Of a stretch of 64,000 nucleotides of DNA, positions 5,560 to 61,603 are shown piece after piece (the stretch's first letter is position 1; every line of letters begins with the position of its first letter). Made by a program: the position numbers and the translations under genes. The stretch lies in NCBI GenBank assembly GCA_951406725.2, contig OX597815.1, positions 12,214,001 to 12,278,000 of the forward strand, given 5' to 3'. Under the pieces are notes generated by a model. That model did not search any database, had not been told where the DNA came from, and was given only the letters and a program-made list of their open reading frames with translations. This DNA is from Octopus vulgaris (lineage: Eukaryota).

Positions 5560-6460
5560 AAAGGCTCCTCATCTGGTAGGTGTCCTGTGAATTAGCAGCA
5601 CAGGCCCGATGACCATTTTACAGCTTCGAGAATAAGATGGTCTAAGGCGATGAATTTAGCTGTCATGGAATATTATTTTTTTGAGCAGATCCGTTAATGG
5701 GTACGGAAAGCTCACAATAGAATATTGAAAAGAAACTACACGGCATGTATTTGGAGAGGCAGAGATAAAATATTATGGAACAGAGATTGCGTGACTTGGC
5801 AAGGGTGATAGAGAAGAAAGGGTGGTTAACTGTATCAGAGCTTGATGAGACTGAGAAGGCGGTGATGATTGGAAACACAGTTTGGCTACAGGGAATGATG
5901 ACGAGTTTGTATGTAATGAAGGTGTTCAAGAGAATTATGCAGAGAAGAAGCACTGAGAAATAAGAAGAGAGGAATCATCGAAGACATCACTGGTATCAAT
6001 GAGAAAAGGTTAGGCGTGGAAGTAAATGGATTCAAGAAAGGGGACAACATTTTGGACTCGGGTGGTGAATATAATACTGAAAGAAATTAAGGTAGATAAT
6101 ATCGGTGGAACGAATGGATTTATTAATGCTTCTATAATCTAATTAGGAAGCAAATTGTTTAAGGGGAAGCGTAGAGACTGAAAAGAAGGATAAAGCAAAC
6201 AATAAGGAAATAATGAAAGCCTATCAACATCCTTGAAAGTAAAAAAAAAAGGAAATGAGGAAGAACAGGAAATAACAGAATCTAGAAAGTTGATAGGGGG
6301 GTAAATGCAATCCTTGAAGAGCTGAAAGAAAGACAGCTGGTGAGAGCTACCAAAATTAACAGGAAAGTTGATTGGATTGAACAATATAAGATCAAGAGAT
6401 TTTTACAGCAGGATCAGAAATGGGTTTATAAGCAATTAAAATAGAAGGGTAACCGCAGTA
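5560..6460 (+). mobile_element. R4/Dong-type retrotransposon, degenerate N-terminal ORF fragment
   Basis: Frameshifted peptides RIRWSKAMNLAVMEYY, EQRLRDLARVIEKKGWLTVSELDE and ILEELKERQLVRATKINRKVDWIEQYKIKRFLQQDQKWVYKQL match the N-terminal region of R4/Dong ORFs (EQRLxDQxRxIxKxxWL; EELKQxxxAKxxKIxRY...QNxLFxxDQKxFY). Confidence 0.7.
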
Positions 6461-6536: not shown

Positions 6537-7870
6537 GATAAAAGCACCAGTGACACACGACCACGTGAGCTAAAGTATACGCACATTATCACTAATTGAT
6601 ACACGTTTTCAACGTACCACACAACTCAACACCCACTGACACATACATCACAAACTAAAGAATGAATTACAGCCAAATGCTCTAACATACATATCAACAC
6701 ACAATTCCCTAAACAAGGAGGCCTTAGAAACCATCCTCCTGTACACTCCTTTACTAAAAAGGGACCATAGAATGAATCAAATCTTCCAAACGCAAACCAT
6801 TATAAAAAGCATAAGACAACCCAAGTCAGTGATAAGTATTCTAACACGAAGCTCATGTACACTCGTCAACAACATCGTAAACGACAGTAAAAGAAACAAA
6901 GATGCGGAAGGCCTGCCTGTGATATATGTGTCAACCTAATTGAGAAGTCGAAGTTCAAATAGGGTCAAAGTTTTACAGCGACAAGCAGCTTCACGTGTTT
7001 TTCGGAAAAGCTGATATATGTGTTAATTTTTTCAGGATGTCAGGAGCAATATATTGGTCAAACTAAAACCAGTCTATGCCAGAGGATGACCGTACATAGA
7101 TTCCAGATTAAAATACGGGAATACATCGACATTTGCGAAAAGTTTAGAATTTTCCCCTCTATAAATTTAAGGACGATGCAACCTCTAATCAGCGAATTAG
7201 CAAAGAATCATATTTTATCGCCGCAAAATATAAACCTCTTTTGAATGCTTCCACCACAAACACTACTACAAGGATCTTAGAATAATATCCACGAATATAT
7301 TAAAAACGTTAGATACATTAAGAACAGTTGCTACTCATGAATTTATTTAGAATAGTTCCTACCATTACTGCTCCAGTCAGAACAAGTCACTTTTAGGTCA
7401 GTTGACAATTAAAGTGCAATCTACGGACAGTCTCTATTACTGGGTCATACCACTCCCATATTTACTTATTCTTCTTCCTCCTCCTCCTTTTCTTCTTCTT
7501 CTTCTTCTTCTTCTTCTTCTTCTTCTTCTTCTTCTCTTCCTTCTTCTTCATCACCTCCTACTTCATCCGCTGCTGCTGCTGCTTAAACCGACAAACTTCA
7601 GTACCATATATATCTCTACACATTTCAACGCTATTTTTTAGATCTTCTACTTCCTACCGAACCTTCACAAAGGAAAACAACGTGAGACACAAAAAAAGAA
7701 GACAAAAACGATAAAAAGGAATTGTCCTACCTATTTGAAGACTGGAAATATTTACAAAACATTTCGTTAAATTTTTTCCTCAAATTAATACTTTTGCTTC
7801 TTAATTAATAACTACCTTTGATTTACCTCTAGTTGAAAAAAGTCGAAAAGACTGAAGCCAGTACTAACAG
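6537..7870 (+). mobile_element. Penelope-like element, 5'-truncated (RT thumb/linker, GIY-YIG endonuclease, 3' tail)
   Basis: Peptides LTYISTHNSLN...IIKSIRQPKSVISILTR, CGRPACDIC and FTCFSEKLIYVLIFSGCQEQYIGQTKTSLCQRMTVHR give the GIY-YIG signature (IY..YIG..R..H). A degenerate hammerhead-like motif lies at 7830-7866 and a (CTT)n run at about 7470-7560. Confidence 0.8.
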
Positions 7871-8125: not shown

Positions 8126-8459
8126 GTTTGTATCCAAATTTGAGTTGTTAAGAACTCAAAATTGAGTACAAACTGTTAAATTCCCGCTAAAAATGGTTGT
8201 TCTGACTCTCCCGAAATTATTTCTAATATCGATAAAATTTGATTAGATGGATACATCGAAACCGGTAACATTTTACTAAACATTGTCTAATATATACTTC
8301 TCTGCCTAATCTGACTTTACTTTTCTTTACTATAATTTGTGATTTGTGTGCCCTCCTAGCCACTTTTCTTCTATGTATCTACTCCTCTCTCCCTTTTTTT
8401 CCTCCACACACACACTCGCTCTCTCTTTCTCCCTATATATATATATATATATATATATA

Positions 8460-8668
8460 GTTAATCCAAACAAGAAAACACAGAAAAAAAGAGAAAAAAA
8501 CAGAAAAAAAACAGAGCAACGCGAGGACGTGGAACAATTAAAGTATTATTGACGCCCAGGAAAGAAGGGAAGGAGGGTTTAACGTTTCGAGCGGAGCTCT
8601 TCGTCGGAAACAAGGAGAAGGAAAGATCCCAAGAAGGGAAGACAGAGGAAAAAATATCTTTGCTGGTG
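8460..8668 (-). mobile_element. Short PLE-type tail element with hammerhead-like motif (copy 1)
   Basis: Reverse-complement homolog of 15437-15635; flanked by (TA)n on both sides. Confidence 0.75.
8577..8611 (-). ncRNA. Minimal type I hammerhead ribozyme motif (U4C core variant)
   Basis: Minus strand reads GUUU-CCGACGA-A-GAGC-UCC-GCUC-GAAA-CGUU-AAAC. Confidence 0.55.
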
Positions 8669-8689
8669 GTGTATATATATATATATATA

Positions 8690-9480
8690 TATGAAGTGAT
8701 ATCACAACGTTTCCGGACTGTTTATGTTTAATATAACTTATTCACATATGTTTTAACATCATCTTCCAAATAGTAACCTTGCGCAGTAATACACCTGTCC
8801 CAACGGTCCTACCACTTTTAGAATCCTACCTGGAAATAATTTTCTGCAGGTCAGTTGAGGATCTTCTTTCATTCGCTCTCGATCACGAGAACGGTGTTAA
8901 CACGAAGACATTTCAAGTGCATTTTTATATTCGGAGAAGAGACGGAAGTTGGCAGATGCTAAAATCTGCTGAATAGAGTAGATGTGTAAGCTATGCCATG
9001 TCGTTTCTGGCGAGAAACTCACGAGTGAGGAGAGATTGGCGACCAGCTGCATTGTCAATATGAAGTATCCACCACTTAGTCCTCCACAAATCCGGTTGCG
9101 TTCGCTGAATGTCCTCCCTCACTTAAAAACACCGCAGTAGAACTTTCGATTGGCCGCCTGATCCTGGGGGACAAATCATCGATGCACAATACACATTTCC
9201 GGGGGTGAGGTTCGTAGTAGTTCTTCCAAATCACTCATCATCTTCCAGGGATGTTCTTCCAATTTTGAAGCGCACATGCCACTCGAAACATTGTGTACAA
9301 CCAATTACCTCGCCTCCGTAAACTTGCCACAGTATGTTCAATATTTCTGTAGCAGACTCAAGTTTAACCCAGACAGAAATTTCACAGGGCACGTTGCCCC
9401 ATGAATGTCAGTGGTAGCTCCATCTACGCCCGCATCCGTGTGTTATTACCTGTTGGCCTTTTACAAAGTTAGTCCGGGAA

Positions 9481-14978: not shown

Positions 14979-15375
14979 AGGAGTCGCTGTGTGGTAAGTA
15001 GCTTGCTTACCAACCACATGGTTCCGGGTTCAGTCCCACTGCGTGGAATCTTGGGCAAGTGTCTTCTGCTATAGCCCCGGGCCGACCAATGCCTTGTGAG
15101 TGGATTTGTTAGACGGAAACTGAAAGAAGCCTGTCGTATATATGTATATATATATATATGTGTGTGTATGTGTGTGTATGTCTGTGTTTGTCCCCCTAGC
15201 ATTGCTTGACAACCGATGCTGGTGTGTTTACGTCCCCGTCACTTAGCGGTTCGGCAAAAAATAGACCGATAGAATAAGTACTGGGCTTACAAAGAATAAG
15301 TCCCGGGGTCGACTTTTCCGACTAAAGGCGGTGCTCCAGCATGGCCTCAGTCAAATGACTGAAACAAGTAAAAGA
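14979..15375 (+). mobile_element. SINE family A, near full length
   Basis: tRNA-like A box and B box (ggttcagtccc), CORE-like ttgggcaagtgtctt, central (TA)/(TG) tract, and tail aatgactgaaacaagtaaaaga. At least eight other copies occur in the window. Confidence 0.92.
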
Positions 15376-15436: not shown

Positions 15437-15635
15437 ACCGTCAGCGATTTTTTTCCTCCGTCTTCCCTTCTCTGGATCTTTCCTTTTCCTATGTTTCTGA
15501 CGAAGAGCTCCGCTCGAAACGTTAAACCCTCCTTCTTCCCTTCCTTCCTGAGTATCCTATAATACTATATTTGTTCCACGTCCTCGCGTTGTTGTGTTGT
15601 GTTTTCTCTTTGTGTTTTCATGTTTAGATTAACTT
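15437..15635 (+). mobile_element. Short PLE-type tail element with hammerhead motif (copy 2)
   Basis: Homolog of 8460-8668; 3' end abuts (TA)n. Confidence 0.75.
15493..15527 (+). ncRNA. Minimal type I hammerhead ribozyme, canonical core
   Basis: GUUU-CUGACGA-A-GAGC-UCC-GCUC-GAAA-CGUU-AAAC: stem I GUUU/AAAC, core CUGANGA plus one extra A, stem II GAGC/GCUC, GAAA, palindromic stem III ACGU, predicted cleavage after GUU. Confidence 0.7.
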
Positions 15636-16532
15636 TATATATATATATATATACATATATATATCAATCTACCTATCTATTTACATATCGATCGATCGAA
15701 AGAGTAAAGTAAATGAAAATATAGGTATGTACGAATACTAATACACATATATACACAAGTGTGTGTGTGTGCTTCTTTGTTAGATAGATAGGAAAAGTAA
15801 AGAATGATAGACGTATTGAGCAAAATATATTTGCGAGCATAATTAAAATAGCTTCTTTCCTTTTTTTCACCTTCTTGAGAATTTTCATCTATCTACTGAC
15901 TTTACACACATATTAGCTTTAACTGAAATGCACAGACAGAAAGTAACACGAATTTGCTGCTTCATTTAGGTGCTGTGACACGGAGAGTTGTGATCTAACA
16001 TCTCGGTGTTGTATAGTTAATGATTCAGACACAAATACACTTCTTAGAAAATTATTTCCCAAACTATAGATAATATTAGTTAGTTGCATGCATTCCATGT
16101 GTTATAAGGAGGCAATTAGTTTATTAGAAATGACTAATGATCGCACCGCCAAACGAATTACATCGTAATTAGGTATAAACTTAAAACGTTCTAAAAGTTT
16201 GAAAGACGATATGTTAATTATTAATGGGAAGCATTCCTAAATAGTTAATGCACAAGCATTATGGCAAGCCAGCGCCATATTATACTGGTAAATACTGCTG
16301 AACTAAGGAATAATTTGAGTTTACACTAAAAATTTGAGACATAATTAATTGCTACATTTGGTTTGGAAATAACATTGATAGAGGAGAAGTAAACTATACC
16401 TTCCCATTTCACCCACCCTCACTTAATAGCTTTACAACGTTTTCATAAATGTCAGTATCTACGATATGCATATATGTATGTTTGTATGTATGAATGAGTA
16501 TATGCCCGTATATGTACCTAGTGAGAGAGAGG

Positions 16533-17849: not shown

Positions 17850-19140
17850 ACACTTCAACTACCTCCAAAAATATCCAGTGATTGTTCTTATTCCTGATGC
17901 TTTCTCACAACAGATTTGTTGCTTTCTCAAATACGATTTGGAAACCTCTACAAATAATTGGCTTAACGCGTGAATTTCAGTATCTATTTAGTTGATTATT
18001 GTGATTTAGAGTAAGTTAACTTTGTGCAACGAAGAGTAACAAATTCAATGGAGTATTTTCTTAGCTTGTTAGTGTTTTGCTTTTCAGGCAACTTGAAATA
18101 GTGCTTTAGGCGATTCGATTGGAGTGCTTTTAGGAATGCTATCCATTTGGAGTCAGTTTTTACTTGTTTTGCAGAACAAGGAATGAAGACTGTTGAAGAG
18201 GGGGATATTTTGCTAAGACTGGTGAGTTATGCGTTTGTGTTGGCAAAAAATGTTTATGCTGGTTATATGTATGGATATCGGTCTCGAAAATATTGCGTAA
18301 ACTTTGGTGTTTTTTGTTTTCTTTCGTACATAAATCAATTCCATGCACTTGCATTTCCTTTCATCAGAGAATCCAGAAGCGTGTGAAGCTATAGAAGGCA
18401 GCATGTCCGTGGTGGGGAATAGATAGTGATGGTAATTGTAACATAAGATATCTTATATTTATATATTCCACGTTGATAATTTTCTCTTGAGTTCTAGCAT
18501 TTCTCCTGTGATGCAGTGTTCTATAGTTATTCGAGTATAAAATGAAGCGTGTTTTTGTAATGCCAGCTTTATCGAATTTGTTGTGTTGTATCCATTGTAA
18601 TCTTGAATTTCAGTAGCCTTCTGCTGCGGTTGCAGTTTTGTAGCTTGTGTCGTAGTTTAATGCTGACTGAAAGTATGCAAAAATGTTTAGTTACGTCTTG
18701 TTAGTGTTAGGCTTTTAATGTTCTCTTCCAGTAAATTCAGTTCTTATGGTTACTTTGCATGTGAACAAAGATGTCGATTTTCTCTGGTATTATTTGTATT
18801 TTCTGTGAAATTGTTATTTAATTTCATATAATCCCTGTCAACCTACAAGCCATGCGTAATGATGTACTATGCGAAGCAAGGGCAGTGTTACACCTGAACA
18901 TTTTAATAAAATACACTTATATACGTCACAATTTTTTGAATAATTTGTTGTGTTGTTGCATGAACTGTGATCTTTTTCTATTGCGGATTTCAGTCTCAGA
19001 GATTTCAACAGGCTTGCACTTAATAAGTTGGGCATTGAAATGTTTCTTCATATTTGGTGTAGAGCTGATTTTCGAATTGATCTCTTGAAATTTTCATCAT
19101 CATACATGAGTACTTCTTGGCTTGGCAATCCGTCGCATTT
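17850..19140 (-). mobile_element. Highly degenerate Penelope-like element (RT to GIY-YIG)
   Basis: Minus-strand KCKCMELIYVRKKTKNTKVY...HITSIN...HKRIT resembles the PLE GIY-YIG region. Many frameshifts. Confidence 0.35.
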
Positions 19141-19146
19141 ATACAT

Positions 19147-19165
19147 TTTGGTTTTAGAAAATTTC

Positions 19166-19245
<80 letters not shown>
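19147..19245. repeat. (TATC)n microsatellite at the 5' junction of the Tx1-like LINE
   Basis: Direct reading. Confidence 0.95.
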
Positions 19246-19246
<1 letters not shown>

Positions 19247-20331
19247 GGAAACTGTCCCTAAAAGGTTGGGCGGAGGTGGCGAACACGTACATCGCGTCCA
19301 TCATCTACAACCACCTGACCGTCGTACCTTGTCCCGACCTTACCATCACCAAACTAGAACGCATTTTCTTCCGCTTCTTGTGGAAAGGATGCGTCCCGAT
19401 GGTCAGGCGATCCATTTGCTGTCAACAACCGTTAAAAGGAAGGCTGGGCATGCCGTGGTTGATGATGCGCAGACACGCGCTGAGACTGCGACATCTCCGG
19501 CTCTATGTAGACGACGGTGAACAGGTGTGGTCGCCGTTTGTGAGGCACGCGTTCCCGCAGCTCGTCTCCATGACCGAACTGCAGTCGAGGATCAAAAAGA
19601 GGCCGAGGAAGGGCGAATGGCACCGCGAGTGTCGCGTTGCTCTCAAGCAACTCTGCCGTCCCGGGTCGACCTTGAGTGACTTCAACACAACCAAAGCATT
19701 CTATAGGGGATTAGTGGAGGGGAGGTACGACGACGATCTTGGGGCAAACCTGGGCGTCGACGAGGAATACCTGACCCGCCTGTTTGAAACGACTTTTGGG
19801 CCGGGACCTATGGACAACTTCCAGGGATCCCTGTTCTGGCGGTGCTACCGAGTAGCGCTACCCGTTCGGGATAAGCTCTATAGGCATGGCTCGAGAAACA
19901 CGGGGCCGACCTGCCCGAGATGCGGACAGAGCGACGAAACCGCTCTGCATGCAATCGTGCAGTGCCCAGCAATTTCCGACCTGTGGGCTTATGTCGAACG
20001 GCTGCTGTCACATGTGGGACGTGTCGGTTTATCAGCCGAGTCTATCGTTAATATCGTCACGCCTCCTTCTTTCAAACGGGAAGGAAGAGCTATTTTTATC
20101 ATACTTGTGGCTATGGCGAAAGAATGTATCTGGTGGACGCGCCTGAAAGGATTAGAGATAAACCCTTTCCTCTCTGGTCAATCTCTCATCAACTTCTTCA
20201 AGTATCACTTGAAGAGGAAAGTGAGAGTAGAGAGGCAAGTTTTGTCTAGTGAATGTTTTAAAAAAATATGGGTGAATATAGCAAGGATGGCACGTATGAA
20301 TGACGAAGCCGCCTTGACTATGATTCTATGA
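19246..20331 (+). pseudogene. Truncated LINE ORF2 (about 360 codons, zf-RVT-like domain)
   Basis: Part of track ORF 19117..20331. The first 43 aa of that ORF are flank and microsatellite read-through, not part of the element. Confidence 0.8.
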
Positions 20332-20949: not shown

Positions 20950-21710
20950 ATCACGTAGCTTATATTTTGCCGTGTGAGGATGCGTCTTTTCGTCCCGTAT
21001 GTCTGATCACAAAACAACATGCAAATATAGGGAGAAAGAATACATACAAATATACACATCTCTATAGTAACAGCATATATATCCACCATGCCCTAGAAAT
21101 TACATAAAGACGGCTCCGTCCTTAATTCAGCCAAATACTATCGAGACTCAAATGGATAAGGCGCTATTAAACGTGAAACTTATGAAACCCTTCTGCACCC
21201 GGACAGTATAGAATACTTTAAACAAACACCAAACAACCAACCGAACAGCAAATATATATGTTAATGCCGGAATACATGTATTATTGCCTGATCTACCAAA
21301 ATATCGAACACATCTTCCCCCATAACAGCATATTCTGTTGAGACAAGAACACATTTGGTAAAGTAAACTTGGACATAATACTAGATCATGTTGGAGAATC
21401 GTGACTGGAAAACTTTTGACTATGTCTACTAAATCAGAGATGACTTTGGGGCTACCCGATAAAACGTATACACATTACGTACAAAACACAATACAGTACC
21501 TTCAAAGAAGCGAATTAATGCAATGCATGCAAAATCAATACTAGGCTCAGGAGTGGCTGTGTGGTAAATAGCTTGCTAACCAACCACATGGTTCCGGGTT
21601 CAGTCCCACTGCGTGGCATCTTGCGCAAGTGTCTTCTGCTATAGCCCCGGGCCGACCAATGCCTTGTGAGTGGATTTGGTAGATGGAAACTGAAAGAAGC
21701 CTGTCGTATA

Positions 21711-21774
<64 letters not shown>

Positions 21775-34210: not shown

Positions 34211-36705
34211 TTAATGTTTGACTTATGCTTTACATTTGTACAAGTTGGCTCCAAATCTCACCTAGAGATCTCAACAGACAACAAGTTGGAAGTTGATGCT
34301 GGTGTTATGCTTAGGTTGTCATATATTTGGTTTTGTACATAGTATAGGCATTGATGTTGGGCTGCTATGATAAATCCTTCTGTTCTTGATTTTAAGCCAG
34401 AAGCCATCAGCTATTGATTTGTGAACATTGGTATTGTTCGCTCTGTTTGGGCATTTGGCATTGAGAGGTTTTTCTTGCCATTTATCAGTCACAATATCTA
34501 AGACAGCAGTTTTTGCACGGAGTTTCATGCGCTAAGCTTTTACTGCACTTGTTTCTGGTACGTCTAATTCTGGAATTTGTTGTGTTTGGACTTCACTTAG
34601 ATATTACTTTGCCTGCTTTGTCATTGAGTATGATGCTTTCTTGTTTTCATGTTTTGAGACAGGTTTTAACACCCAGTCCTCAGAGGTTTCAGGTTCTAAC
34701 ATTCAGTCCACAGAGTTTTTGTGGCAATCTTCATTGTTAATGCCAGTTGTAAAACCCCACGGCCTCCCTCTTTTCTTGGCAGATAAAGTAATTCTGTATC
34801 TGCCTTAGGTTGGTGAATTCTATGCATTGTCAGCAGTTCTCGTTTGTTTCTGTCAAGATTACTTATTTCAATAATTGACCAGTGAATGATATTGAAACTG
34901 TAAGTCACGACTAATGTGGCTAAAGCATTGATCGCTTCGATCCTGTTTCTTGCATTCAGCTCTCTTGAGTATTGCACTCACCCTGCGATAATATTCTCTC
35001 CCGATCCTTTCCCTCGTCACTGAATGTTTGACCCCGTCTCCTTGAATTACATTTGGGTGCTTATAGCTGTCCACTGGTTCTTACACTTTTATGACATTCT
35101 GCTGATCAAGGTCAACGTTAGATATTTATCATTATTTTCCATTGATAAATGTAGATTTTGCACATTTATCGAGGCCAAATTGCATCCTGATGTCATAATC
35201 GAATTGTTTAACAATCGTTAGTAAGCCCTTGAGTTGTTGGTAATTTTTTGCAGAGTTTTAAATCATCCATGTAAAGGAGATGATTTATATTTTTATCAAA
35301 CATTTTATAACCGCATTGTGCATCGTTGAGCAATTTTGAGAGAAGTATTAACGCTAGACAAAAGAGGAGTGGTGATAGTGAGTCACCTTGGAAAATACCG
35401 CATGAAATTCTTACATCTCCAGCATTTAGAGATCCATTGTCACTGTTCAAAATCTGTGTGGTTCTCCATGATCTCATGTTTATAGACAAAACGTTTCGCA
35501 GAGTAGGAGCTATTTTATACATCCCAGGCATTTCAGTCAGAACAGATGTTAACATTTTATACATTGTTGTTAAGCAGGTTATGGGTGGATACCTTTTGGT
35601 TCATTTGTTTCTTTATTTTTGGGAGGTAGTTAAATAATTAACTAACCAAGGGGGAATCATTCTAGGATGTTGCAAAGCATCGTGGTAAAGTTCTGTTAGC
35701 AGTTCATGTCTCTCTGGGAAGGAATTCAAACAGAAGTTAGGAATTTTATCTTTGCCTGGAGACTTCAATTTACTTCACATCTAGAGAGCAGATCTTATAC
35801 CTTCTCCCTTGACATCCTCCAACTTTTGCTCCTATAAGGAGTCTAAGTCTGTAGATATTCTATCAATCCAATGTGCCTTTTTATTGTGTGTTTTTCTTCT
35901 GCCCAAATTTTATTCCAAAAATCCTGCACTTCTTTCTATGGGCAAAACTGTACTGTAACTGGTATTTTCCCTATCTTCCTGTGAAAATGTTTGGGGTTAT
36001 CTTTGAACATGTTGTTTTCTATGAAGAATCTAACGCGCTTTTCATACCTTGCTATGCGGGCAACTTTAGCACATACCTTTTGGTTGATGGTTTCTATGGT
36101 GGTATCAATGTCAAGTATGGTTTTCATACTATATTTTTTCTTTAATTTTCTTTTTTTTTTTAATTTTAGGTTTGATAGTCTTGTCAGACCTAAGTGTTTT
36201 CAAACATTCTATGTCAGAACTAAGTAGTTTAATTTGGTGTTGAATACGCTCTTGCCAAGAAAGCTTTTCGTGGGAATGTTGTCGTTTTCTAATCTTTTCA
36301 CCACATAGAATCATCAAGATGTTTGCGGATGCATAATACAGGTGGCTGAGATCTGTAATATCAATATCATTAACTGACATTATATCCTTAAGTGCAAGGG
36401 CAGATTTTAACAATTATTTTCATGTTTTGATGCGAATATTTAGGAGAGTGTTGCGCTCATTGATACTGGTTTCTTTAATTTTCATTCATTCAAACGTGAT
36501 TTGATTTTTTAGATCGTGTAGTTCTGTTTGGTAAATTTCTGTGTGACTGTTTTCATCTATTTGATTTTCATCTGCCTCAGTGTTTATGATTAGTTCAGTG
36601 AGTATTTCACTTTGACTGTCAGTTAAATTAATTCTTTCAGTCATTATTGCATTTTCATCAGCCCTGGGCTGGTCTATAATTATTTCCTCTGTAGTATCTG
36701 CTTTA
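34210..36705 (-). mobile_element. R4/Dong-type non-LTR retrotransposon, decayed, with RT core
   Basis: GIFQGDSLSPLLFCLAL...INHLLYMDDLKL (RT motifs), ELNARNRIEAIN...LYLPRKEGGRG, KWQEKPL...ASGLKSRTEGFIIAAQ and N-terminal QKVCAKVARIARYEKR...NNMFKDNPKHFHR. The 3' UTR ends in (TAA)n at 34150-34210. Confidence 0.92.
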
Positions 36706-40727: not shown

Positions 40728-41224
40728 TAAAAATTCTTCTTTCAAATTTGCTTCCATTTCTTGCCGAGTGTCTTCCCGACTCCTAGGGCAAAGAAACTCA
40801 TAGTATACATTGGTAGGCCATTAAACCAAACTCAATAGTTCGTTCATTTTTTTAAGTTAAATTAAAATACATGAGCAGCAACAGTTCTCACATCGACAAT
40901 GCTCTTCTCAATACGTGTGATGTACCAGTTAAGACAATCTTTTGCGCTTCTTGCAGGGATGGTAAGCCAGGGATCATTCTCATATAATTTTCGGTTCCCT
41001 TCTTGATCATTCCTAGTGCTCCTACGATCACTGGTATTGTAACCGCCTTGAGATGCCACATTTTCTCAATTTCAATAAGTAGGTCTTTATATTTTCTGAG
41101 CTTGTCAAACTCTTTCGCTGAGATATTATGATCACAGGGGATGCTCATGTCGATCAATAAGCAAACTTTATTGTTTTGGTCTTTCACAACAATATCTGGT
41201 TTATTGGCCTTGATGGTTCTGTCT
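40728..41224 (-). mobile_element. R4/Dong-type retrotransposon 3' end with intact RLE endonuclease frame
   Basis: DRTIKANKPDIVVKDQNNKVCLLIDMSIPCDHNISAKEFDKLRKY...PVIVGALG...QKIVLTGTSHVLRRALSM* (PD..D..K restriction-like endonuclease). Ends in (TAA)n at 40711-40728; (TAA)n also lies upstream at 41253-41310. Confidence 0.92.
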
Positions 41225-50697: not shown

Positions 50698-51099
50698 TCT
50701 CTTTCTCTTTTACTTGTTTCAGTCATTTGACTGCGGCCATGCTGGAGCACCGCCTTTAATCGAGCAACTCGACCCCGAGACTTATTCTTTGTAAGCCCAG
50801 TACTTATTCTATCGGTCTCTTTTTTGCCGAACCGCTAAGTGACGGGGACGTAAACACACCAGCATCGGTTGTCAAGCAATGCTAGGGGAACAAACACAGA
50901 CACACAAACAAACACATATATATATATACATATATACGACAGGCTTCTTTCAGTTTCCGTCTACCAAATCCACTCACGAGGCATTGGTCGGCCCGGGGCT
51001 ATAGCAGAAGACACTTGCCCAAGATGCCACACAGTGGGACTGAACCCGGAACCATGTGGTTGGTTAGCAAGCTACTTACCACACAGCCACTCCTGCGCC
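50698..51099 (-). mobile_element. SINE family A, full length, 9-bp TSD
   Basis: Head ggcgcaggagtggctgtgtgg on the minus strand; TATAGATAT at 50689-50697 and 51100-51108. Confidence 0.93.
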
Positions 51100-51294
51100 T
51101 ATAGATATGTAACTAAATTAAATTACCTCAAGACGAAACTTATCGCAGTATTTCGCTTCCTATTTCACATCCGTGTGGCTAAAGTCTGAAAGCAAATGAT
51201 TACATTTACCAATTACAGCTGTCTTAGTACATACATAAGGAATAAATACTGTTGAAAATGCTATAAAGCAATTATGCGCATGGAATAACTGGAC

Positions 51295-51907: not shown

Positions 51908-52320
51908 TCTTTTACTCTTTTACTTGTTTCAGTCATTTGACTGCGGCCATGTTGGAGCACCACCTTTAGTCGAGCAAATCGACCCCGGGACATATTCTTT
52001 GTAAGCCCAGTACTTATTCTATCTGTCTCTTTTGCCGAACCGCTAATTGACGGGGGACGTAAACACACCAGCATCGGTTGTCAAGCAATGCTAGGGGGAC
52101 AAACACAGACACACAAACACACATACATACATACATATATATACATATACATATATACGACAGGCTTCTTTCAGTTTCCGCCTACCAAATCCACTCACAA
52201 GGCATTGGTCTGCACGGGGCTATAGCAGAAGACACTTGCCCAAGGTGCCACGAAGTGGGATTGAACCCGGAACGATGTGGTTGGTTAGCAAGCTACTTAC
52301 CACACAGCCACTCCTGCGCC
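51907..52320 (-). mobile_element. SINE family A, full length, within (TA)n
   Basis: Near-identical layout to 50698-51099. Confidence 0.93.
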
Positions 52321-53329
52321 TATATATATATATATACACACTCACAAATATGTATGTATGCATGTGTGTATCGATGCAACTCTGAACTTTGATTACGATC
52401 AACCAATTACTTTTTCTCGTAAATTAAAGAATGATGTTATTTGGAATTAAAGTTGGGAAATTTAAGTAATTTTAGCCAATCGATAGACAACGTGGCATTA
52501 GTAACTTGCTACCATAACAACCACTGTTGTCTGTGCCGCACGTTGTTCTACGTTGATTTCTTAAACGTGATTGTTCACACCACGGGATTCTTTTCACCCG
52601 CGTGTTTTGTTCCAATTTTCCTGTGTGTTAGTATATAATATTTTCCTGTGCTTTGGGGACAAATTCTTTGTTGACAAGTGTTTTTCTTATTATAGTTTAG
52701 AAATCCAAGTGTGAAATTGTTATTCGACTTTGAAGTTTTGGAGACAGATGAATACAAAAATGTGCATATAATCTTATATATGAATACATACATCCACATG
52801 CACTTTTACATTAACGATGCACAAAAAAATAACATGGCAGGTCTACATAATACTAAAACACGCATAATGTAATCACAAGCAGACAAATATATTAATATAA
52901 CAAATTAGAAAAATAATAAAAACATACAATCAATGAAGAAACAGTAAGATGAGACATGTTGATTTTATTAGGTATTTCTGTTTATTTAGAAACCAACAAT
53001 GAACAGGTCAGTCGCTAAACTATAAATTTCATAGCGTACAACCTTAAAGTTGACACCGCTCCGCTAAATACAGAAACATTCTGTCTCGCTATTAGCTAAA
53101 AATGCATAGTTTTTCCAATATTTAAATCTCTTTTTCCCCCAATTTTCTTTTTCTCTACATCATACCTTCATAGAAATGAGACTTCTAGACTGTGGCCGAT
53201 TTTCAGATTTCTTACTTTCTTTTAAAACATGTATGCTTTGCGTATTAAAAACTAGATCCCACACAGAAAGACAGGCAGACAGACAGGCGGATAGATAGAT
53301 AGTTAGATATATAGACAGATAGATAGTAG

Positions 53330-57161: not shown

Positions 57162-57454
57162 ATAGAATGGTTGTATACTGTCAACTTAACGTGACAATCC
57201 TGTATGGGAATTGCACCACCACTGTTTAGCCCTAAGAAGCATCGACGCTTCCGTTCGGCCTTGACATATTTCCTGTGTTCTCATATATATTTTTTATATA
57301 TTTATATATTTATATATTTTTTTAAAAATATATAAGGACACAGGAAATGTGTCAAGGCCGACAGGAAGCGTCGATGCTTCTTAGGGCTAAACAGCGGTGG
57401 TGCAATTCCCTTACAGGACTGTCACGTTAAGTTGACAGTAGACAACCACTCTAT
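57162..57454. repeat. Inverted pair of about 120-bp arms around an AT-only spacer
   Basis: tactgtcaacttaacgtgaca...tgtttagccctaagaagcatcgacgcttcc...ttcctgtgt is mirrored at about 57335-57454. Confidence 0.9.
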
Positions 57455-60721: not shown

Positions 60722-60908
60722 CTTAAAGGGAGAATTCACAAAAAAACTCCCAAAGGACCAAGACTGGTGGTGTACAAAACAAACAGATGTATTAGTATAA
60801 CGCTCGGGAAGTGAAAATGTCTTTAACGTTTCGAGCCTACGCTCTTCCACAGAAAGGAATACAGAAAGAAACAAGGAGAGAAAATAATGTATATGTGGCT
60901 AGCGATCT

Positions 60909-60911
<3 letters not shown>
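60722..60911 (-). mobile_element. Short PLE-type tail element with hammerhead-like motif (related family)
   Basis: Shares tttaacgtttcgagc...gctcttc with the 8460 and 15437 elements; bounded by (TA)n on both sides. Confidence 0.7.
60821..60856 (-). ncRNA. Hammerhead-like motif with atypical core (CUGUGGA)
   Basis: Minus strand reads CUUU-CUGUGGA-A-GAGC-GUAG-GCUC-GAAA-CGUU-AAAG. Confidence 0.5.
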
Positions 60912-60968
<57 letters not shown>

Positions 60969-61220
60969 TGTATGTATATTATCCGTAAGTAACTTTAGTT
61001 GAACCAGCCCCGGGGCTTACTTCACGCTGATTCTCTTGTTTCCTTTCCTATCAGTAAGAGTGAAGATTTCGTCAGACTCAACCTCACCCATTACAATTTG
61101 CGTGCATGTATTTGTGTGAGGGTTTGCGCATACAGGTGTGCGTCTGCGCGCTCTTATATTTAGATATTTCATATTTTGTGTATTTTCTTTTATGTGTTGA
61201 ATGCATTTGTATTAAGTCGA

Positions 61221-61603
61221 GGCGTAAGAATGGCTGTGTGGTAAGTAGCTTGCTTAACAACCACATGGTTCCGGGTTCAGTCCCACTGCGTGGCACCTTG
61301 GGCGAGTGTCTTCTACTATAGCCTCGGGCAGACCAAAGCCTTGTGAGTGGATCTGGTTGACGGAAACTGAAAGAAATCCGTCGTATATATGTATATATAT
61401 TTCCTCTAGAGAATTTCCCTTGTAGTTTGATCGTTGATGATCTTCTTCTAGCATTCTGGCCGGATACCTAGCAGGCCAGCCCTGCCAATATACACATATA
61501 TTTGAATTTTCTCTGACCCTTCAGATTTTTTGAATGCTGGACTACTGGTTTTAAATTGATATTAAAATTAATATTAATTTATCTCCCTCAATTCTTAAAT
61601 ATT

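What the first reader, a model, noticed from the sequence alone, without database searches (positions are those of the whole stretch)
15437..15635. Short hammerhead-ribozyme-carrying PLE-type elements (retrozyme-like) ending in (TA)n
Seen: a ~200-bp non-coding repeat, present here and inverted at 8460-8668, contains GUUU-CUGACGA-A-GAGC-UCC-GCUC-GAAA-CGUU-AAAC at 15493-15527. This is a complete type I hammerhead layout whose stem III is reduced to the palindrome ACGU. The ribozyme-strand 3' end of both copies runs into (TA)n. Established: Penelope-like elements and metazoan retrozymes carry minimal type I hammerheads with palindromic stem III that are proposed to cleave as dimers, and an extra nucleotide after A9 is tolerated in natural hammerheads. 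Inference: these are solo pLTRs or non-autonomous ribozyme retroelements mobilised by PLE machinery. If the region is transcribed, two dispersed same-strand copies could complement each other to cleave host RNA.
Basis: partly seen in the sequence, partly recalled or inferred. Interest (0 to 1): 0.75.

Follow-up and report, generated by a model that had tools for sequence, protein, structure and literature searches.

The report
Solo Penelope end-piece with minimal hammerhead
This 200-base repeat is the lone end-piece of a known kind of jumping gene (a Penelope-like element), present in thousands of copies and carrying its usual stripped-down, untested self-cutting RNA motif; most copies start at one fixed spot that likely marks where the element's RNA begins, and most carry an altered core letter that would weaken cutting.

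Summary
The motif is real: a minimal type I hammerhead layout at 15493-15527, with a second, inverted copy at 8459-8670. The repeat is the terminal repeat (pLTR) of a Neptune-like Penelope element. Elsewhere in the genome it flanks an RT + Cx4CxxC + GIY-YIG ORF on both sides. It is not a retrozyme: copies are dispersed and the ribozyme is minimal. The (TA)n is the insertion target on both sides, not a tail. (1) The family majority core is CCGACGA (U4C): 4640 exact copies against 973 with CUGACGA. This includes the second window copy and a young subfamily about 99% identical. A sister family has A6U. (2) Under 1% of copies start at the predicted cut, so templates were mostly uncut, and host-RNA cleavage by dispersed copies is unsupported. 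Of 100 copies reaching a site about 82 nt upstream of the ribozyme, 72 end there, likely the RNA start. Earlier notes of this scan report the same fixed start in other genomes. Known kind; modest interest as a natural test of whether PLE hammerheads must cut.

The parts
15437..15634 (+). Solo pLTR of a Neptune-like PLE, subfamily A1 (U4 core). It starts about 22 nt inside the family's modal 5' end.
   Evidence: 176 of 191 aligned columns identical to each pLTR flanking the ORF in L113; 92-95% identical to the 39 other scored genomic copies
15493..15527 (+). Minimal type I hammerhead layout: stem I GUUU/AAAC, core CUGACGA 15497-15503, extra A 15504, stem II GAGC/GCUC, GAAA 15516-15519, palindrome ACGU 15519-15522, predicted cut after 15523
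   Evidence: cleavage not tested
15635..15663 (.). (TA)n target. Its first bases (TTATATA) also match the element's own pLTR/body junction.
   Evidence: junction GGATTAACTTTATATAC in L113-L116
15389..15436 (.). TA/TATC microsatellite on the 5' side of the insertion
8459..8670 (-). Second solo pLTR, subfamily A2 (U4C core), between two (TA)n runs
   Evidence: 170 of 175 aligned columns identical to the pLTR downstream of the ORF in L121
8577..8611 (-). Hammerhead layout of copy 2, core CCGACGA
60722..60912 (-). Homologous sister family B (ends approximate): core CUGUGGA (A6U), same stem II with a 4-nt loop, stem I CUUU/AAAG

Best explanation
The repeat is a solo terminal repeat (pLTR) of a Neptune-like Penelope retrotransposon sitting in (TA)n microsatellites, likely copied there by the element's own RT-endonuclease from uncut RNA, likely primed at the pLTR's 3' end and running to the RNA's 5' end. 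Shown: the pLTR-ORF-pLTR linkage, the protein motifs, thousands of dispersed copies, TA on both sides, a fixed 3' end, a sharp 5' boundary about 82 nt upstream of the ribozyme, and a majority U4C core. Inferred step 1: the GIY-YIG domain nicks (TA)n and the TA end pairs with the UUAUAUA at the pLTR end. Inferred step 2: transcription starts inside the upstream pLTR at the boundary, so priming at the first pLTR end gives a solo of about 215 nt, and priming at the second gives pLTR-ORF-pLTR. Inferred step 3: the hammerhead is a weak, dimer- or protein-dependent ribozyme, kept by selection in master elements but not needed for each insertion; solo copies are inert passengers. Odds: identity as a PLE pLTR about 0.95; the RNA-start mechanism about 0.55.
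For: Linkage: of 10 loci picked by an N-terminal ORF piece, 9 carry the repeat in ORF orientation and 4 (L113, L114, L116, L117) carry it on both sides. All 9 of 9 loci picked by the ORF's C-terminus end in the sister pLTR A3. Of 11 A3 loci, 6 have the ribozyme on both sides, 6133-6218 nt apart. Protein: YIDD RT core, Cx4CxxC linker and GIY-YIG with CCHH; Pfam RVT_1 E=6e-4 and GIY-YIG E=0.007; 28% identity over 728 aa, E=3e-79, to a 781-aa PLE whose GIY-YIG passes the cut-off. Selection on masters: A2 vs A3 ribozyme 33 of 35 identical against 34 of 57 and 63 of 80 in the flanks; stem I G-C becomes C-G in family B; N7 takes all four bases in B while G5, G8, A9 stay fixed; family C has the U3-A8 covariation in 19 of 30 GIY-YIG loci. 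Boundary: 34 of 38 copies picked by the ribozyme pattern start within 84 nt of C3; 72 of 100 copies reaching the boundary end within 2 nt of it. Uncut templates: 5472 copies keep both G markers 5' of the cut against 200 without them, and about 16-18 of the first 100 of those 200 start at the cut (hand count). Literature: Penelope transcription starts in the upstream pLTR (PMC2377424); the anole PLE primes internally, uses uncut RNA, and its HHR needs the protein (PMC11167929).
Against: There are no RNA-end data. Both Pfam hits for this family's ORF are below the curated cut-offs, and no PDB sequence matches. The boundary has A/T microhomology to the TA target, which could by itself favour template exit there. 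An extra G at the junction (a possible cap copy) is seen in 10 of 72 copies: p=0.07 against the wider flank and p=0.003 against the next seven positions, so it is inconclusive. In the youngest subfamily only 2 of 10 measurable copies start at the boundary and 8 are longer; 10 further sites could not be measured. Upstream repeats of full-length A3 copies are variably long (281 to over 1800 nt). None of 100 solos shows the 30-40 nt tail known from other PLEs. None of the 5 A3 copies with the start codon has an unbroken ORF.
Confidence: 0.8

Rival explanations
1. The short copies form a self-propagating non-autonomous, SINE-like family. Solo pLTRs keep an internal promoter, are transcribed into their (TA)n flank, and are re-inserted in trans by the PLE protein.
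For: Short copies dominate A1 and A2 (34 of 38) and share one 5' end. In rotifers, pLTR sequence alone appears sufficient for mobilisation in trans (PMC3846280 passage).
Against: Each short subfamily checked also has long or ORF-linked copies (A1: L074, L079, L118; A2: L113, L114, L120-L122). No short-only subfamily was seen. The solos' 5' flanks differ from copy to copy.
Confidence: 0.25
2. The short copies are ordinary 5'-truncated insertions of full-length RNA. RT falls off or jumps to the target at a microhomology hot spot, and there is no RNA start there.
For: 5' truncation is usual for PLEs. Junctions often share A/T or TG letters with the target. Young A3 copies show broad truncation, and one long breakpoint recurs twice.
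Against: The drop from 100 to 28 copies occurs within 3 nt, at a homologous position in A1, A2 and A3; in B a similar start is seen in a few copies by eye only. There is little loss in the 57 nt between the ribozyme and the cluster (3 of 38).
Confidence: 0.3
3. The repeat is a non-LTR retrozyme: a tandem-repeat, self-cleaving, circular-RNA element that also cleaves host RNA through dispersed pairs.
For: It has a type I layout and a length of about 200 nt. A preprint derives retrozymes from PLE pLTRs (10.64898/2026.07.22.740005). A few neighbouring copies separated by microsatellite exist (L013, L062, L113).
Against: There are no head-to-tail arrays; only one pair lies under 2 kb apart among the first 100 places. 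The ribozyme is minimal, not canonical, and the majority core is U4C. Copies are not permuted at the cut. Stem I pairing probability is about 0.04 in context, and two copies cofold into an inactive duplex.
Confidence: 0.05

Closest known systems
Minimal type I hammerheads (min-HHR) in pLTRs of metazoan PLEs (Cervera and de la Pena 2014, PMC4209133; parts 1-2 of 4 read, supplements not read)
   Same: 4-bp stem I, extra nucleotide after A9, G10.1-C11.1 pair, palindromic 15.2-16.2, mostly dispersed single motifs with a few flanking a PLE ORF; the U3-A8 variant is present in this genome's family C.
   Different: The majority core is U4C, and A6U in family B; neither is mentioned in the parts read. 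Stem II is short (4 bp).
Neptune (or Nematis) clade EN+ Penelope-like elements (Craig et al. 2021, PMC8557442; passages read)
   Same: RT, CX2-5CxxC linker, C-terminal GIY-YIG with CCHH, partial tandems forming pLTRs, HHR near the 3' end, microsatellite targets that hide target-site duplications.
   Different: Long CA-rich 3' UTR (unit 5.3-6.2 kb). No 30-40 nt tail seen. Clade not placed on a tree with reference elements.
PAc (Poseidon of Anolis carolinensis), studied in vitro (Frangieh et al. 2024, PMC11167929; parts 1-2 of 4 read)
   Same: AT-rich targets, a fixed 3' end inside a tandem junction, and inserted copies carrying an intact HHR, which fits uncut templates.
   Different: In PAc the ORF starts inside the HHR and priming is not by homology. 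Here the ORF starts about 300-450 nt after the pLTR, and the pLTR end shares TATA with the target.
Non-LTR retrozymes (Cervera and de la Pena 2020, PMC7229834; passages read)
   Same: Type I HHR, unit about 200 nt, non-coding.
   Different: Retrozymes are tandem repeats with canonical HHRs, expressed as circular RNA. These copies are dispersed, minimal, and are the end of a coding element.

Membership tests
EN+ Penelope-like element pLTR | Repeat flanks an RT ORF in direct orientation | tested here: met
   4 of 10 loci have it on both sides and 9 of 10 on at least one side; 6 of 11 A3 loci on both sides
EN+ Penelope-like element pLTR | ORF with RT and C-terminal GIY-YIG bearing CCHH | tested here: met
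   Motifs; Pfam hits in the right order but below cut-off; E=3e-79 to a PLE whose GIY-YIG passes the cut-off
EN+ Penelope-like element pLTR | Partial-tandem arrangement | tested here: met
   L133: 1917 of 1917 aligned columns identical between the upstream and downstream repeat
EN+ Penelope-like element pLTR | 30-40 nt tail (optional feature) | tested here: not met
   0 of 100 copies continue into the element body
Neptune clade | CX2-5CxxC linker between RT and EN | tested here: met
   Cx4CxxC; the feature is shared with Nematis
Neptune clade | Placement in an RT phylogeny with reference elements | not tested
   No reference PLE proteins were fetched
Minimal type I hammerhead | Stems I and II, extra base after A9, palindromic stem III | tested here: met
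Minimal type I hammerhead | Core CUGANGA...GAAA | tested here: inconclusive
   Met in the finding's copy and in subfamily A1 (973 exact copies). Not met in the family majority (4640 exact U4C; 58 C against 35 U of 98 copies picked by the 5' motif).
Minimal type I hammerhead | Self-cleavage as a dimer or with protein | not testable with these tools
   Folding only
Non-LTR retrozyme | Head-to-tail tandem repeats with an HHR in each unit | tested here: not met
   Dispersed copies; rare neighbours are separated by microsatellite
Non-LTR retrozyme | Canonical HHR (6-bp stem I with loop 1-loop 2 contacts) | tested here: not met
   4-bp stem I, no stem III loop; no Rfam hammerhead among the listed matches
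Non-LTR retrozyme | Abundant circular RNA | not testable with these tools
   Only contigs were available

The most novel reading that the evidence does not exclude
PLE lineages in this genome amplified to tens of thousands of copies, and one was active very recently, with hammerhead cores fixed for changes that impair catalysis (U4C, A6U; in the youngest subfamily also a mismatch in stem I), while G5, G8, A9, G12-A14, stem II and the ACGU palindrome stayed invariant. The motif would then be kept mainly as a protein-bound or dimerising RNA structure, or as a protein-rescued ribozyme. The mass of solo pLTRs would be direct cDNA records of the element's mRNA 5' end, made by internal priming at the first pLTR end and running to the cap.
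Probability: 0.35. Interest if true: 0.6.

Novelty: new member of a known kind. Interest (0 to 1): 0.33.

Why it matters
As a class this is known: minimal hammerheads in PLE terminal repeats, dispersed as solos. What adds value is a natural series of cores in one genome (canonical A1, U4C A2 and A3, A6U family B, U3-A8 family C) on related, successful elements. It makes the open question of what PLE hammerheads do directly testable; PMC8557442 calls their function unclear. The sharp 5' boundary may also show how pLTRs are regenerated, for which PMC2377424 says there is no obvious mechanism.

Tried and rejected
Rfam scan: no hammerhead among the 150 of 255 matches listed. First GIY-YIG search: the 30 loci fetched, of 150 scored, were mostly family C; the one A copy (L047) sits inverted in that element's TA run and is not its pLTR. 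The PLE fragment at window 6592-7249 is family-C-like and unrelated to copy 2. CpG decay as the source of the canonical core: rejected as the main cause, since CTG 973 against CCA 165 is far from symmetric, and CTG is linked to a downstream marker (34:1 against 5:19, p=5e-10; 59 of 67 copies classifiable; sample enriched for copies like the window's). A second marker test in that script failed through a regex fault and gave nothing. Direction of the U4/C4 change: unresolved. U4 copies are more diverged from their majority (5.4% against 3.5%), but a tree of 49 rows drawn at random from 171 copies nests the 12 U4 rows within C4 rows (support 92/93; the finding's own copy was not among the rows). 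Pile-up of 5' ends at the cut: not found; about 16-18 of the first 100 start at the cut and about 14 start 5-7 nt upstream (hand count). Expression: no RNA holder listed; 4 of the 19 runs were laid, contigs only, and gave no ends or strand. PDB: 0 matches. The protein atlas gave no result. Lunse et al. (PMC5785218), the key paper on PLE hammerhead variants, is not held; I know it only from a review's passages. It, and the unread supplements of PMC4209133 and PMC8557442, may already list U4C or A6U. Searches for 'hammerhead'+'U4C' gave only PMC3088659, which notes a viroid U4C variant with much lower activity in vitro yet still infectious. 'hammerhead'+'A6U' listed only a twister paper (listing only). 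'cephalopod'+'hammerhead ribozyme' listed 2 of 4 hits, neither about this family by title and abstract start.

Full report
Observation. The motif is at 15493-15527 as described. With a strict core it is the only descriptor hit in the window, and 100 shuffles gave a mean of 0.0 palindromic hits. The second copy is inverted at about 8459-8670, is 81% identical, and has CCGACGA in place of CUGACGA. A third, more distant motif lies at 60855-60822. The window is G000:C2:12214001-12278000 in a 2.8-Gb, microsatellite-rich genome. It looks to me like an octopus; this is recalled from the look of its SINEs and was not tested.

The family. The finding's 34-mer has 973 exact copies (control 0). A degenerate form has 8440, and among the first 100 listed the core begins CCG in 85, CTG in 10, CCA in 3 and CAG in 2 (hand count). 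Exact counts with the same 3' side are CCG 4640 and CCA 165. CTG is therefore far more common than symmetric CpG decay predicts, and it is linked to a diagnostic site (p=5e-10), so the finding belongs to a real U4 subfamily (A1) inside a family that is mostly U4C. Of 98 copies picked by their 5' motif alone, position 4 is C in 58 and U in 35. Copies decay at core positions too, mostly at CpG, as expected of unselected insertions.

Link to a PLE. Two flanks gave ORF pieces (L064, L079), which I used as queries. Of 10 loci picked by the N-terminal piece, 9 carry the repeat in ORF orientation and 4 on both sides. In L113 it lies at 670-860 and 5922-6113 around the ORF, each copy 176 of 191 aligned columns identical to the finding. 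In L113-L116 the upstream repeat runs straight into the same element body. All 9 loci picked by the C-terminal piece end in a sister repeat, A3. Of 11 A3 loci, 6 have the ribozyme on both sides, 6.1-6.2 kb apart, and the ORF region is 96.8-99.3% identical to L133 in the 10 other loci. L133 has an 884-codon open frame, although none of the 5 copies with the start codon is unbroken. The protein has the RT core, a Cx4CxxC linker and a GIY-YIG domain with CCHH. Pfam hits are in that order but below cut-off, and it aligns over 728 aa (E=3e-79) to the 781-aa family C PLE. By the features in PMC8557442 (passages) it is Neptune- or Nematis-like.

Ends. The 3' end is fixed at GATTAACT, followed by ATATAT in 27 and TTATAT in 23 of 70 copies. 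The second form matches the element's own junction, so the (TA)n is target DNA with a few shared bases. On the 5' side, 60 of 82 short copies have TA-type flank. Of 38 A1/A2 copies picked by the ribozyme pattern, 34 start within 84 nt of C3, 31 of them between 58 and 84. Among the first 100 of 2180 copies that reach the motif about 82 nt upstream, 72 end within 2 nt of it, 82 within 8 nt, and 18 run on; median length is 213 nt in the 64 measurable short copies. A non-templated G at the junction occurs in 10 of 72 (p=0.07 or 0.003 depending on background). Four of the 100 have a piece of PLE ORF joined directly to this point (L207, L235, L255, L273; read by eye), which would fit RT jumping from a template end. 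In A1 the site reads TCATTC, which resembles an initiator (recalled consensus). Against this model, only 2 of 10 measurable A3 copies start there. The finding's own copy starts about 22 nt inside the boundary.

The ribozyme. Between subfamilies the 35-nt motif is better kept than its flanks (33 of 35 against 34 of 57 and 63 of 80 for A2 vs A3). Family B has 16093 matches; 96 of the first 100 have U at position 6 and all four bases occur at N7 (hand count), and stem I has C-G for G-C. Family C shows U3-A8 in 19 of 30 loci. This pattern indicates hammerhead-type selection in master elements, with relaxed positions 4 and 6. PMC3088659 (passages and section 8) reports U4C and A6C natural variants as low in activity. 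In folding, stem II forms (p about 0.84) and stem I does not (about 0.04); the monomer and the two-copy optimum are inactive folds, and the ACGU duplex adds about 3 kcal/mol over stems II alone (no tertiary terms). Copies that span the predicted cut outnumber the rest 5472 to 200, and about 0.6% start at the cut. This agrees with PMC11167929 (parts 1-2), where uncut RNA is the main substrate and the HHR cuts only with protein.

Mechanism. Most likely, transcription starts inside the upstream pLTR, as in Drosophila Penelope (PMC2377424, passages and discussion). The endonuclease nicks (TA)n, and RT primes at a pLTR end. Priming at the first end gives a solo and priming at the second gives a full element. 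These steps are inferred. The main rivals are a truncation hot spot and SINE-like re-mobilisation of solos. Host-RNA cleavage by dispersed pairs is unsupported; the two window copies are inverted and, if co-transcribed, would more likely pair with each other.

Standing. Minimal hammerheads in PLE pLTRs, mostly as dispersed singles, are described in PMC4209133 (parts 1-2), and solo pLTRs in PMC3846280 (passages). Retrozyme criteria (PMC7229834 passages; preprint part 1 and passages) are not met. An octopus repeat annotation lists recently active Penelope families and does not mention ribozymes (PMC13282606, part 1 and a word search of the main text). I found no description of this family's cores in print, but the most relevant paper (PMC5785218) and all supplements were not seen. 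The scan has no note on this sequence. Eight notes on other genomes describe solo or truncated Penelope ends, most with a fixed start. I had reached that reading before the look-up, and those notes are not independent support. Verdict: a new member of a known kind, interest 0.33.

Noticed in passing
window about 60722-60912 (-): Sister family B with an A6U hammerhead core and 16093 pattern matches genome-wide. Its autonomous partner was not identified; in L119 it is separated from the ORF by unrelated DNA.
   Followed up: partly
L037 / L061 (G000:C16:20835500-20840800): Family C, a Neptune-like PLE with many 781-aa open frames. Its 3' hammerhead has the U3-A8 covariation and an ACAUGU palindrome, followed by (TA)n.
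   Followed up: partly
L133 and L123-L143: Young subfamily A3, unit about 6.2 kb, with a C-rich ORF and an approximately 2.9-kb CA-rich 3' UTR containing two GC-rich islands. Core U4C, GUC triplet, U-U mismatch in stem I.
   Followed up: partly
window 6592-7249 (+): Decayed C-terminal fragment of a family-C-like PLE ORF, 51-55% identical in protein.
   Followed up: partly
window 8700-9100 (-): Decayed transposase-like stretch next to copy 2; its resemblance to mariner is recalled, not tested.
   Followed up: no
window 14980-15375, also 21542-21741, 50706-51100, 52103-52334, 61220-61400: Abundant SINE-like repeat of about 400 nt, 88-96% alike between copies. The finding sits just after one copy.
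   Followed up: no
window 57207-57410: Near-perfect inverted repeat around an AT-rich centre, MITE-like; it gives the spurious top Rfam miRNA hits.
   Followed up: no
window 19081-20331 (+), 35208-35600 (-), 40888-41223 (-): Open frames that look like pieces of non-LTR retrotransposons (by eye). No host exon was identified in the window.
   Followed up: no
L078, L214: Two copies in inverted orientation around one (TA)n run, tail-to-tail in L078 and head-to-head in L214.
   Followed up: no
runs X15, X17: The repeat, with both U4 and C4 forms, is also held in runs of two other organisms (codes B and C).
   Followed up: partly
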